A DNA stretch of 64,000 bases. Source: Escherichia coli (GTDB taxonomy: Bacteria; Pseudomonadota; Gammaproteobacteria; Enterobacterales; Enterobacteriaceae). Shown piece by piece: positions 45,793 through 46,781 of the stretch. Location: assembly GCF_024223415.1 (NCBI RefSeq), contig NZ_CP100500.1; one strand, 5' to 3'. The notes beneath the pieces are model-generated. The model was not told the DNA's origin. It did not search any database and saw only the letters and a list, made by a program, of their open reading frames with translations. The translations under genes were made by a program, and so were the position numbers. Within the stretch, counting starts at the first letter, position 1; every line of letters starts with the position of its first letter.

Positions 45793-46781
45793 GTCGTTAC
45801 GCACCTACACCGGAAGTTATGGCTATTGGTCAAATTAATATTTCCGGCAATGTCACCCCCGCGAACTGGTGGAAACATATTCGGCTACCCAGTGGTCGTC
45901 CGGATGCGACTGCTATCGCCTTGCTTTCAGAAATTGTTTACTGGTACCGCCCGACAGAACTCCGGGATGAGCATACCGGGGCTTTGCTGGGATATCGCAA
46001 GCGTTTTCAGGGTGACAAACTGCAAAGAAGCTATCAGGCGTTTGCTGAGCAATTTGGCTTCGGGAAAAGGGAAACCGCAGATGCGCTGAAGCGTCTTCGC
46101 GATGCAGGGTTTATTACTCTGGATTTACGCACCGTAGAAATGCTCGATGGTGTGAAATGCAGCAATATTTTGTTTGTCGGGATCAACCCACAGGCAGTTG
46201 CTGCCATTACCACACCTTCTTCTGTTTCGCCAGAAAGTAACAGCAATAACGCAATCAGCGACACAGCTATTACGTTAAAACGGAACACCCCCCAACGTCA
46301 TAACGGAACAGGGGATACGCCGAATGTTGATACAAATACAGAGATTACTACAGAGATTACAACGGAGACTAAAAACACTATTGGCGCATCCGCTGACGCG
46401 TCTGCACCAGCGCGTTCCGCCCGACAGGAATATTCACCGGAATTTGAACAGGTCTGGCAGGAATATCCCAAACGTGCTGGTGGCAATTCCAAGTCAGCAG
46501 CCTTCAAAGCCTGGAAAGCCCGTCTCAGGGAGGGAATAAAACCGGAGACCATGCTTGATGGTGTGAGACGTTATGCCGCCTGGGTACGTGCTACAGGAAA
46601 TACCGGCACACAGTTCGTGAAGCAGGCGTCGACGTTCTTTGGCCCCGATCGGCACTTTGACGAATCCTGGCAACAGCCAGCCGCTCCCGGAGGTGGGCGA
46701 CAGCGACAGGTCGATGTCCTGGCTGGCCTGGGAGCCATGTCTGACAAATTCGGTAAATCCAGTGACAAATTGACATTCTGA
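45789..46781 (+). CDS. Replication initiator (lambda O-like) with internal iterons
   Basis: 330 aa directly upstream of DnaC- and DnaB-like genes; contains tandem 12-bp repeats. Confidence 0.65.
   Translation: MSRYAPTPEVMAIGQINISGNVTPANWWKHIRLPSGRPDATAIALLSEIVYWYRPTELRDEHTGALLGYRKRFQGDKLQRSYQAFAEQFGFGKRETADALKRLRDAGFITLDLRTVEMLDGVKCSNILFVGINPQAVAAITTPSSVSPESNSNNAISDTAITLKRNTPQRHNGTGDTPNVDTNTEITTEITTETKNTIGASADASAPARSARQEYSPEFEQVWQEYPKRAGGNSKSAAFKAWKARLREGIKPETMLDGVRRYAAWVRATGNTGTQFVKQASTFFGPDRHFDESWQQPAAPGGGRQRQVDVLAGLGAMSDKFGKSSDKLTF
46338..46373 (+). repeat. Iteron-like direct repeats (candidate origin of replication)
   Basis: acagagattact / acagagattaca / acggagactaaa in tandem, encoding TEITTEITTETK. 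Confidence 0.55.

What the first reader, a model, noticed from the sequence alone, without database searches (positions are those of the whole stretch)
46338..46373. Iteron-like tandem repeats inside the O-like replication gene (candidate phage origin)
Two exact and one degenerate 12-bp direct repeats (ACAGAGATTAC-T/A, ACGGAGACTAAA) lie within the initiator coding sequence, encoding a TEITTEITTETK linker. Lambda-type origins consist of iterons embedded in the O gene.
Basis: partly seen in the sequence, partly recalled or inferred. Interest (0 to 1): 0.35.

Follow-up and report, generated by a model that had tools for sequence, protein, structure and literature searches.

The report
Conserved core of in-gene phage origin
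The 12-base repeats are real and sit in what is very probably a phage replication origin hidden inside the initiator gene; the same DNA word is kept, whatever the reading frame, in related phage genes from very different bacteria, so it is a DNA signal and not a protein feature.

Summary
Observation confirmed: ACAGAGATTACT / ACAGAGATTACA / ACGGAGACTAAA at 46338-46373, the best tandem repeat in the 64-kb window. It lies in the disordered-linker coding part of a 330-aa replication initiator (45789-46781), upstream of DnaC-like and DnaB-like genes.

The region looks like an in-gene origin, but the 12-mers are probably not the specificity-determining iterons. Directly upstream (46270-46332) are three 22-23-bp-spaced, weakly dyad-symmetric repeats. 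In relatives these become clear palindromes that differ between lineages, as lambda iterons do. The 12-mer array follows them, as the A+T-rich tract follows the lambda iterons. It is the least stable stretch of the gene.

The word ACAGAGAWTAC in 12-bp tandem recurs in initiator genes of three remotely related winged-helix N-domain families. These come from Proteobacteria, Firmicutes, Actinobacteria, Bacteroidota and a cyanobacterium, and are joined to many different C-domains. It occurs in all three reading frames. In 50 E. coli-type alleles synonymous variation collapses over it. In a motif-first scan, all 111 assessable loci of 120 returned lay in such genes.

No experiment shows origin activity. 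I found no description of this motif in the searchable literature.

The parts
45789..46781 (+). Replication initiator gene (330 aa): N-terminal winged-helix domain, disordered linker, C-terminal domain shared with other prophage initiators
   Evidence: ORF. PHROG 270 'replication initiation protein' E 7.6e-79. No Pfam family passes threshold. AlphaFold2 model.
45789..46211 (+). Coding region of the N-terminal winged-helix domain ('N1', aa 1-141; motif LLSEIVYWYRP...DKLQRSY..FAEQFGF.KR)
   Evidence: pLDDT above 90 over aa 1-141 with a helix-turn-helix plus beta wing. Fold matches are to winged-helix proteins only and all are weak. Homologues at 45-67% identity occur across phyla.
46221..46409 (+). 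Coding region of the predicted disordered interdomain linker (aa 145-207); it contains all the repeats
   Evidence: pLDDT about 30-50 over aa 145-223. Homology to initiators with other N-domains starts at 46338 or 46379.
46270..46287 (.). Candidate iteron 1, TTACGTTAAAACGGAACA (imperfect dyad TTACGT / ACGGAA)
   Evidence: Direct repeat D10. The pattern ACGTYAWAACGGAACA has exact copies only at 46272 and 46295; 6 matches at up to 3 mismatches in the window against 1.4 expected. Equivalent palindromes in relatives.
46293..46310 (.). Candidate iteron 2, CAACGTCATAACGGAACA, 23 bp after iteron 1
46315..46332. Candidate iteron 3 (degenerate), ATACGCCGAATGTTGATA, 22 bp after iteron 2
   Evidence: Read from the sequence. 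It corresponds in position to the last, better-preserved repeat of relatives, for example CCTACGTTGAAACGGGGGACAAAT in L248 and L273.
46333..46373 (.). Conserved origin core: junction CAAAT plus the three 12-mers ACAGAGATTACT, ACAGAGATTACA, ACGGAGACTAAA (the finding)
   Evidence: Family consensus GAC[AG][AT]AT-ACAGAGAWTAC-[TA]ACAGAGA.. with the highest information content on the first unit. The word occurs in frames 0, 1 and 2. Copy number is 1-4 among close relatives.
46331..46381 (.). Least stable, most A+T-rich stretch of the initiator gene (proposed unwinding region)
   Evidence: Nearest-neighbour free energy -58.8 kcal/mol against a gene mean of -72.1 +/- 4.5. GC is 0.35 at 46320-46379. 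Across 72 relatives the GC trough (0.33-0.35 against 0.44) sits exactly on the array.
46410..46778 (+). Coding region of the C-terminal domain (aa 208-330), shared at 92-96% DNA identity with initiators that carry other N-domains
   Evidence: PHROG matches to 'DnaD-like helicase loader / primosomal protein' families over aa 180-309.
46783..47670 (+). DnaC-like helicase loader gene
   Evidence: Pfam IstB_IS21 5.6e-14 and Bac_DnaA. NCBIfam DnaC model 4.2e-36, below its curated cut-off.
47667..49067 (+). DnaB-like replicative helicase gene
   Evidence: Pfam DnaB_C 2.7e-74 and DnaB N-terminal domain 1e-5.

Best explanation
The 12-mer array is the conserved, A+T-rich core of a replication origin embedded in the DNA that encodes the flexible linker of the phage initiator. 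The proposed sequence of events follows. (1) The N-terminal winged-helix domain binds, probably as dimers, to the three 22-23-bp-spaced imperfect palindromes at 46270-46332; these are the true iterons and they differ between lineages. (2) The resulting nucleoprotein complex destabilises the adjacent array GATACAAAT-(ACAGAGATTACN)x3 at 46330-46380, which is the least stable stretch of the gene. The word may be held in single-stranded form by a conserved surface of the initiator, as the 13-mers of plasmid and chromosomal origins are. (3) The C-terminal domain recruits the phage DnaC-like and DnaB-like proteins to the opened DNA. Because the word is constant while the flanking modules vary, the array also serves as the joint at which N- and C-terminal modules are exchanged between phages. 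Shown here: the anatomy, selection at the DNA level, the association with one initiator superfamily, and the A+T-richness and low stability. Inferred: binding, unwinding, helicase loading and origin activity.
For: Selection acts on DNA, not on the peptide:
- In 50 unique alleles of this gene, variable sites number 8/124 in 46262-46385 against 153/728 in the flanks (p 3.6e-5). At third codon positions the counts are 3/42 against 110/242 (p 7e-7).
- Geobacillus and Aneurinibacillus homologues with about 50% protein identity read ACA AAT ACA GAG ATT ACT ACA, identical to the window.
- Among 75 unique genes from 80 genome loci retrieved with N-domain-only patterns, 64 carry ACAGAGAWTAC (up to 2 mismatches) 1-5 times in the linker zone. 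That is 158 units, against 12 hits in 47 kb outside the zone. 130 units are in frame 0, 26 in frame 1 and 2 in frame 2; for example L328 reads TNTENNYRDYHRDY.

Association with the initiator superfamily:
- A motif-first scan of IMG/VR returned 120 loci. All 111 that could be assessed lie in ORFs whose N-domain belongs to N1 (27), N2 (22) or N4 (62).
- These three families are remote homologues: hhalign probability 91-93%, E 5e-7 to 9e-7.

Origin-like anatomy:
- Upstream of the array, relatives carry about three lineage-specific palindromes, such as CCTCCGAAAATTCGGAGG, TTACGTTGAAACGTAA and CATGTAATCAATTACATG.
- Autocorrelation there peaks at lag 22-23 (0.46 and 0.35 against 0.25). Inverted repeats are enriched, 6.5 against 2.2-2.7 in controls.
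- The mean GC trough falls exactly on the array, and in the window the array is the stability minimum of the gene.
- The order N-domain, iterons, A+T-rich tract, C-domain is that of ori-lambda (PMC7466680).

The array goes with the N-domain, not with the loader or helicase:
- phiP27-type initiators have the same C-domain and the same DnaC/DnaB genes but a different N-domain. They lack the word and carry other post-iteron repeats.
- E. coli prophages without DnaC/DnaB downstream keep the word.

Precedent: winged-helix Rep proteins bind one strand of the repeated 13-mers of the unwinding element, and these repeats are required for origin activity (PMC4081077). Lambda O binds A+T-rich single-stranded DNA (PMC7466680).
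Against: - There is no experimental evidence of origin activity, binding or unwinding for any member of these families.
- In the window the three upstream repeats have only weak dyad symmetry (2 inverted-repeat positions), and the third is degenerate.
- The A+T-rich stretch is short, about 50 bp, and is followed at once by G+C-rich DNA.
- The number of 12-mers varies from 1 to 5. Eleven of 75 homologues have only more degenerate versions.
- Tandem 11-12-bp direct repeats are themselves the initiator-binding sites in SPP1 oriL (PMC6316719), so the 12-mers could be double-strand binding sites.
- By eye, the aligned helices of the three families share basic residues where a recognition helix would lie; if so, they could read a common word. 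I did not test this.
Confidence: 0.55

Rival explanations
1. The 12-mers are the initiator's double-stranded binding sites, that is, iterons in the strict sense. Winged-helix monomers would bind head to tail every 12 bp. The upstream palindromes would be auxiliary or regulatory sites.
For: SPP1 oriL, inside gene 38, consists of tandem ~11-bp direct repeats (GAAACGACAGA, GAAACGACAC, GAAAAAGACAC x2) followed by an A+T-rich tract. gp38 binds these repeats (PMC6316719). The word co-occurs strictly with one homologous N-domain superfamily. Its distance from the last upstream repeat is fixed. By eye, the aligned helices share basic residues across N1, N2 and N4.
Against: The three N-domain families are only remotely similar (19-25% identity in the hhalign alignments), yet the word is nearly invariant. 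The upstream palindromes, by contrast, change with lineage as specificity sites should. The array is itself the A+T trough and stability minimum, and no separate A+T-rich tract follows it. Some homologues have a single copy.
Confidence: 0.22
2. The array has no role in replication. It is a short conserved 'linker' kept because it allows homologous recombination to shuffle N- and C-terminal modules, that is, a mosaic joint.
For: Homology between the window and Stx-phage initiators with another N-domain begins exactly at 46338. In the N2 family, C-domains of at least four kinds diverge immediately after the array. Many C-domains (PF07261, PF09524, PF11638 and a C-terminus that by eye resembles that of lambda O) are joined to N1.
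Against: Recombination alone cannot hold 20-30 bp constant between Firmicutes, Actinobacteria, Bacteroidota and Proteobacteria whose flanking protein identity is about 45%. It does not explain the fixed position next to periodic palindromes or the A+T trough. The joint role is better seen as a consequence of a conserved functional element.
Confidence: 0.08
3. It is an ordinary slippage-prone coding repeat: a low-complexity Thr/Glu/Ile linker selected, if at all, at the peptide level.
For: Copy number varies by whole 12-bp units among close relatives, from 1 to 4. The segment is predicted disordered.
Against: The DNA word is kept in all three reading frames, encoding TEIT/TENT, YRDY/NRDY or QRI. 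Thr is always ACA/ACT, Glu always GAG and Ile always ATT across relatives with 55% protein identity. Synonymous variation is suppressed.
Confidence: 0.03
4. It is another kind of cis signal inside the gene, such as a promoter, a structured RNA, a translational signal or a priming site.
For: Conservation at the DNA or RNA level does not by itself name the function. The unit contains trinucleotides that, as I recall (not checked here), are preferred start sites of bacterial primases: CTG on the bottom strand, TTA and CTA on the top strand.
Against: There is no promoter-like site in 45700-46900 and no Rfam match. The array is unpaired in the single-strand fold. A priming site would in any case be part of an origin.
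Confidence: 0.07

Closest known systems
ori-lambda: origin inside gene O, with four 18-bp dyad iterons followed by an A+T-rich tract
   Same: The origin lies in the middle of the initiator gene, in the DNA that encodes the linker between the DNA-binding N-domain and the C-domain that recruits the helicase. Periodic dyad-symmetric repeats are followed on the 3' side by an A-rich, easily melted tract (PMC7466680). Even the junction looks alike: lambda reads ..CAAAACAGGGGGACACAAAAGACACTATTAC.., and an Acinetobacter N1 locus reads ..CAAAAGGGGGACAAATACAGAGATTAC...
   Different: The initiator is not a Phage_rep_O protein (no Pfam hit; hhalign with lambda O shows no similarity). The partner genes are DnaC-like and DnaB-like rather than P. 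The A+T-rich part is a defined 12-bp word kept across phyla, not just A+T-rich sequence. There are only three upstream repeats, with weak symmetry, in this window.
SPP1 oriL inside gene 38 (replisome organiser G38P, loader G39P, helicase G40P)
   Same: The origin lies inside the initiator gene's linker and is built of tandem short direct repeats plus an A+T-rich unwinding element. Loader and DnaB-type helicase genes follow (PMC6316719). Firmicute N1 initiators carry the same C-terminal domain as G38P (PF09524) or sit next to a G39P-like loader.
   Different: The G38P N-domain is not detectably related to N1 (hhalign probability 0.9%). The SPP1 repeats have another sequence and an ~11-bp period. 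In SPP1 the direct repeats are the binding sites, whereas here separate palindromic repeats precede the array.
13-mer repeats in the unwinding elements of iteron plasmids (RK2 oriV, F) and of oriC
   Same: Short tandem repeats fill the A+T-rich region next to the iterons or initiator boxes. In the plasmids, winged-helix Rep proteins bind one strand of them sequence-specifically, and every repeat is needed for origin activity (PMC4081077, PMC10602881).
   Different: Those origins are intergenic, and the Rep proteins have two winged-helix domains. Single-strand binding by this phage initiator is a hypothesis and has not been tested.
Origin within the rep gene of lactococcal phage TP901-1 (and the 'Per' origins of P335-type phages)
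   Same: The rep gene is annotated 'replication protein, experimental'. Its linker DNA shows two direct repeats, TTTTCCAGATGTGG, followed by an A+T-rich, A-rich repetitive tract. From memory, Ostergaard et al. 2001 (Appl Environ Microbiol) mapped the essential repeats inside this gene.
   Different: The TP901-1 Rep N-domain does not match the N1, N2 or N4 profiles, and the ACAGAGAWTAC word is absent.

Membership tests
Lambda-type origin (ori-lambda and lambdoid relatives) | Origin located inside the initiator gene, between the DNA-binding and helicase-recruiting domains | tested here: met
   All the repeats lie in the predicted disordered linker, aa 145-207. Module boundaries fall at 46338 and 46379.
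Lambda-type origin (ori-lambda and lambdoid relatives) | Three or more dyad-symmetric initiator sites (~18 bp) at about 20-24-bp spacing | tested here: inconclusive
   The window has three repeats at 23- and 22-bp spacing, with weak symmetry. Relatives have clear palindromes with a 22-23-bp periodicity. Binding was not tested.
Lambda-type origin (ori-lambda and lambdoid relatives) | A+T-rich, easily unwound tract immediately 3' of the iterons | tested here: met
   46331-46381 is the stability minimum of the gene. The GC trough across the family falls on the array.
Lambda-type origin (ori-lambda and lambdoid relatives) | Initiator belongs to the lambda O family (Pfam PF04492 Phage_rep_O) | tested here: not met
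   There is no PF04492 hit even at E up to 10, whereas lambda O scores 5.7e-36. hhalign of lambda O against N1 and N4 shows no similarity. Only weak PHROG 'O-like' matches appear, at 1e-6 and 1e-4.
Lambda-type origin (ori-lambda and lambdoid relatives) | Initiator-dependent unwinding and replication of an ori plasmid | not testable with these tools
   This needs wet-lab assays.
SPP1 oriL / G38P replisome-organiser origin | Tandem direct repeats plus an A+T-rich element inside the organiser gene, followed by loader and DnaB-type helicase genes | tested here: met
   for the window; for SPP1.
SPP1 oriL / G38P replisome-organiser origin | N-terminal origin-binding domain homologous to that of G38P | tested here: not met
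   hhalign of G38P against the N1 profile gives probability 0.9%.
Initiators with N1/N2/N4 winged-helix domains and an ACAGAGAWTAC array (superfamily defined here, not a published family) | N-terminal winged-helix domain of type N1, N2 or N4 | tested here: met
   The window protein is the reference N1. The model shows a winged helix-turn-helix. N1, N2 and N4 are mutually related at hhalign probability 91-93%.
Initiators with N1/N2/N4 winged-helix domains and an ACAGAGAWTAC array (superfamily defined here, not a published family) | One to five tandem copies of ACAGAGAWTAC, period 12, directly after periodic upstream repeats, in the linker-coding DNA | tested here: met
   The window has 2 exact copies and 1 degenerate copy at 46338-46373, preceded by GATACAAAT. 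The family consensus is and the counts.
Plain coding minisatellite / low-complexity linker | Conservation explained by the peptide or by recent slippage only, with free synonymous variation and a fixed reading frame | tested here: not met
   The word is found in three reading frames, synonymous sites are frozen, and conservation extends across phyla.

The most novel reading that the evidence does not exclude
ACAGAGAWTAC in 12-bp tandem is a sequence-specific unwinding and loading element shared by a very large, still unnamed superfamily of phage winged-helix initiators in at least five bacterial phyla. It would be read, probably as single-stranded DNA, by a conserved surface of the N-domain. 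That would make it a phage counterpart of the 13-mers or DnaA-trios of cellular and plasmid origins. Its constancy would also make it the universal joint through which these phages swap origin-specificity and helicase-recruitment modules.
Probability: 0.3. Interest if true: 0.75.

Novelty: new variant of a known kind. Interest (0 to 1): 0.6.

Why it matters
Origins embedded in initiator genes are known from lambda, SPP1 and some lactococcal phages. For most prophage replication modules, however, the origin is simply unknown. If this reading is right, one short DNA word locates the origin to the base in thousands of phages and prophages of Gram-negative and Gram-positive hosts, including Stx-converting phages, Acinetobacter, Staphylococcus and Bacillus phages. 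It also separates the variable specificity sites from a constant core. That gives a direct handle on how a winged-helix initiator without an ATPase opens DNA, and it offers a concrete explanation for the free shuffling of N- and C-terminal initiator modules. The word could also serve as an annotation marker, and cloned copies could be tested as origin decoys that inhibit phage growth.

Tried and rejected
- Literature. Full-text searches for the DNA word and its complement gave 38 unrelated papers. Searches for the peptide forms TNTEITT, TEITTEIT and others gave none. So I found no prior description, but subscription journals are not covered. The search for 'LvrA', an NCBI label on some homologues, gave nothing relevant.
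- Protein identity. A PDB sequence search gave nothing significant. The Foldseek PDB search gave only generic winged-helix matches, none at E of 0.001 or better. Pfam and NCBIfam have no model for the N-domain. Homology to lambda O and to SPP1 G38P was tested and not found.
- Other readings of the DNA. A promoter scan, Rfam and a single-strand fold gave no support for a promoter, a structured RNA or a hairpin at the array. By eye the word does not match a DnaA box (TTATCCACA), an IHF site or a run of DnaA-trios; this is an inference, not a computed test.
- My own intermediate hypotheses. First I thought the array travels with the C-domain module, because homology to Stx phages starts at 46338. 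I rejected this because phiP27-type genes share the C-domain without the array and the array accompanies many different C-domains. Then I thought the 12-mers were the N1-specific iterons. I downgraded this once the same word turned up with the N2 and N4 domains and with lineage-specific palindromes upstream.
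Full report
**The observation.** The window reads ACAGAGATTACT (46338-46349), ACAGAGATTACA (46350-46361) and ACGGAGACTAAA (46362-46373). 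Tandem Repeats Finder gives period 12, 2.7 copies and score 50. This is the only array in 42-50 kb and the better of only two arrays in the whole window. The repeat encodes TEITTEITTETK within the 330-aa ORF 45789..46781. That ORF matches PHROG 270 'replication initiation protein' (E 7.6e-79). A DnaC-like gene (46783-47670) and a DnaB-like gene (47667-49067) follow it. Upstream is a cI/cro-type immunity region. The gene has no Pfam family and in particular does not match lambda O.

**Where the repeat sits in the protein.**
- An AlphaFold2 model built on 53 homologues folds aa 1-141 with pLDDT above 90 as a helix-turn-helix with a beta wing.
- It leaves aa 145-223 without confident structure.
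- Structure matches are generic winged-helix proteins only.
- The repeats therefore lie in DNA that encodes an interdomain linker.
- This is also a mosaic boundary. BLAST homology to Stx-phage initiators with a different N-terminal domain starts exactly at 46338. Homology to phiP27-type initiators starts at 46379.

**Close relatives.** I collected 80 IMG/VR loci and several E. coli prophages with the same N-domain.
- The number of exact 12-bp units varies from 1 to 4.
- Among 50 unique alleles, nucleotide diversity at third codon positions falls to zero between about 46269 and 46358, while the flanks show 0.1-0.25.
- Variable sites number 8/124 in 46262-46385 against 153/728 outside (p 3.6e-5).
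- At third positions the counts are 3/42 against 110/242 (p 7e-7).
- The few variable sites lie in the spacers between repeats.
- The constraint is therefore on the DNA. It covers the 12-mers and also a second repeat just upstream: ACGTTAAAACGGAACA at 46272 and ACGTCATAACGGAACA at 46295. A degenerate third copy lies at 46317.

**Distant relatives.** The N-terminal domain, which I call N1, is widespread and well conserved, at 45-67% identity. It is fused to many different C-terminal domains. I retrieved 80 genome loci from GTDB species representatives using peptide patterns taken only from the N-domain, so nothing selected for the repeat.
- The loci come from Enterobacterales, Marinomonas, Acinetobacter, Bacilli, Clostridia, Coriobacteriia (GC 0.59) and a cyanobacterium.
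- In 64 of 75 unique genes the word ACAGAGAWTAC (up to 2 mismatches) occurs 1-5 times in 12-bp tandem in the linker zone.
- That makes 158 units, against 12 hits in 47 kb of the same genes outside the zone.
- Geobacillus and Aneurinibacillus read ACA AAT ACA GAG ATT ACT ACA, identical to the window.
- The decisive point is reading frame: 26 units are in frame +1 and 2 are in frame +2, encoding YRDY, NRDY or QRI instead of TEIT.
- Selection therefore acts on the DNA word and not on the peptide.

**Anatomy around the array.** I aligned 71 dereplicated loci on the first unit. The conserved core is GAC[AG][AT]AT-ACAGAGAWTAC-[TA]ACAGAGA.., with information content highest on the first unit.
- The 90 bp upstream is not conserved in sequence but is conserved in design. 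Each lineage has about three copies of its own imperfect palindrome.
- Examples are CCTCCGAAAATTCGGAGG in Marinomonas, TTACGTTGAAACGTAA in Xenorhabdus, CATGTAATCAATTACATG in a Syntrophomonas genome, CCCGGAATTTCGGGG in Lachnospiraceae and CCCCATTTCAAAAGGGGG in Acinetobacter.
- Autocorrelation of this stretch peaks at lag 22-23 (0.46 and 0.35 against 0.25).
- Inverted repeats are about threefold enriched over coding and shuffled controls.
- Mean GC drops to 0.33-0.35 exactly on the array, against a background of 0.44, and no further A+T-rich tract follows.
- In the window, 46331-46381 is the least stable 50-bp stretch of the gene: -58.8 kcal/mol against -72.1 +/- 4.5.

**What the array goes with.** A second N-domain family (N2, found in Stx1a-type phages) carries the same word down to 55% protein identity and with at least four kinds of C-domain. 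In these genes Thr is always ACA/ACT, Glu always GAG and Ile always ATT.
- I then searched IMG/VR for the DNA dimer ACAGAGAWTACWACAGAGAWTAC itself.
- Of the 120 loci returned, 111 had enough upstream sequence to assess.
- All 111 lie inside ORFs whose N-domain is N1 (27), N2 (22) or a third family, N4 (62).
- The three families are remote homologues of one another: hhalign probability 91-93%, E 5e-7 to 9e-7.
- N4 occurs in phages of Staphylococcus, Pseudomonas, Klebsiella, Vibrio and Flavobacterium. These show the same design, in part with degenerate or variant words.
- phiP27-type initiators provide the contrast. They share the window's C-domain and its DnaC/DnaB genes but have an unrelated N-domain.
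- They lack the word. Instead they carry their own palindromic repeats (CCGTCAGAWTCTGA, 5-8 copies), followed by two 24-bp direct repeats.
- E. coli prophages that keep N1 but have no DnaC/DnaB genes downstream keep the array.
- The array therefore belongs with the N-domain superfamily, not with the C-domain, the loader or the helicase.

**Interpretation.** The design is a winged-helix domain, then periodic dyad repeats, then an A+T-rich tract, then a recruiting domain, all read off one gene. This is the design of ori-lambda.
- In lambda, four annotated 18-bp iterons are followed by GGGGGACACAAAAGACACTATTAC....
- In lambda, O binds the iterons, the adjacent A+T-rich tract is unwound, and O also binds A+T-rich single strands (PMC7466680).
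- I therefore read 46270-46332 as the iterons. I read the 12-mer array as the unwinding core where the helicase is loaded.
- Such a core might be conserved as a word, rather than merely as A+T-rich DNA, because of a known precedent. In iteron plasmids, the repeated 13-mers of the unwinding element are bound strand-specifically by winged-helix Rep proteins and are all required (PMC4081077).
- The main rival is that the 12-mers are duplex binding sites. SPP1 oriL supports this: it lies in the linker DNA of gene 38 and consists of tandem ~11-bp direct repeats, bound by gp38, plus an A+T-rich tract (PMC6316719).
- I cannot separate these two readings by computation. Both make the array part of an origin.
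- A purely recombinational 'joint' role explains the mosaic breakpoints but not the conservation across phyla.
- A peptide-level or slippage explanation is contradicted by the frame data.
- Promoter, RNA-family and hairpin scans were negative.

**Membership and novelty.** The locus works like a lambda-type or SPP1-type in-gene origin, but it is not a member of either family. Pfam PF04492 is not matched, and neither lambda O nor G38P is detectably related to N1. I found no paper containing the DNA word or its peptide forms, and Pfam has no model for N1, N2 or N4. I rate it a new variant of a known kind. The kind, an origin embedded in the initiator gene, is classical. The invariant 12-bp word shared across phyla and across three initiator families appears undescribed within the limits of the literature I could search.

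**Limits.** All functional statements are inferences from sequence comparison. The window's own upstream repeats are only weakly symmetric. E. coli prophages are heavily over-represented in some of the sets.

Noticed in passing
L003 and L169-L233 (phiP27-type initiator genes), linker DNA about 300-560 nt into the gene: A different initiator family, with the same C-domain as the window, has its own in-gene origin-like design. It carries 5-8 copies of the palindromic CCGTCAGAWTCTGA, whose number changes by 15-bp units between prophages. Two conserved 24-bp direct repeats, AAAACATGATCCACAAGTAAATTC, follow, and C-domains are swapped right after them.
   Followed up: partly
window 46263-46273: A 2-mismatch copy of the 11-mer (ACAGCTATTAC) lies directly in front of, and overlaps, the first candidate iteron. 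Its meaning is unclear and it may be chance.
   Followed up: no
L006 and L007 (E. coli SF-468 and Z1323CEC0011 prophages): These prophages have the same initiator N-domain and array, with one extra 12-mer. The last ~100 nt of the gene differ, and a PerC-family regulator follows instead of DnaC/DnaB genes. This suggests that the C-terminal tail decides whether the phage's own helicase or the host's is used.
   Followed up: no
protein P0011; compare window ORF 46324..46539 (+1 frame): One chromosomal homologue is annotated as a 253-aa protein that runs into the +1 frame just before the array (..MLIQIQRLLQRLLQRLKTLL..). It is either a frameshifted pseudogene or a sequencing error. The DNA array is still intact there.
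   Followed up: no
window 46401-46406: A 6-bp in-frame indel (GCACCA, Ala-Pro) occurs in some alleles just downstream of the array, in the alanine-rich start of the C-terminal module.
   Followed up: no
window 45365-45381 and 45556-45572: The 17-nt string GGAGG(C/T)GCGTCCATGAT is repeated 191 bp apart. Each copy holds a ribosome-binding site and the start of a small ORF (PHROGs 7046 and 1153, both of unknown function) immediately upstream of the initiator gene.
   Followed up: no
window 49367-50362: A 331-aa ORF matching PHROG 96 'HNH endonuclease' (E 7e-175) follows the helicase gene and a small ORF (49064-49321). It is a common companion of this replication module.
   Followed up: no
window 62047-62076: The only other tandem repeat in the window is TGCCGGTGACCGGCA, period 15, 1.9 copies, score 44. 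It is itself palindromic and lies in the late (structural) gene region.
   Followed up: no
L457:3748-4566 (TP901-1 rep) and L332:179-949 (SPP1 gene 38): Two initiators annotated or reported as experimentally studied, from families unrelated to N1, also have short direct repeats followed by an A-rich, A+T-rich repetitive tract in their linker-coding DNA. Origins written into initiator linkers may therefore be a general rule.
   Followed up: partly
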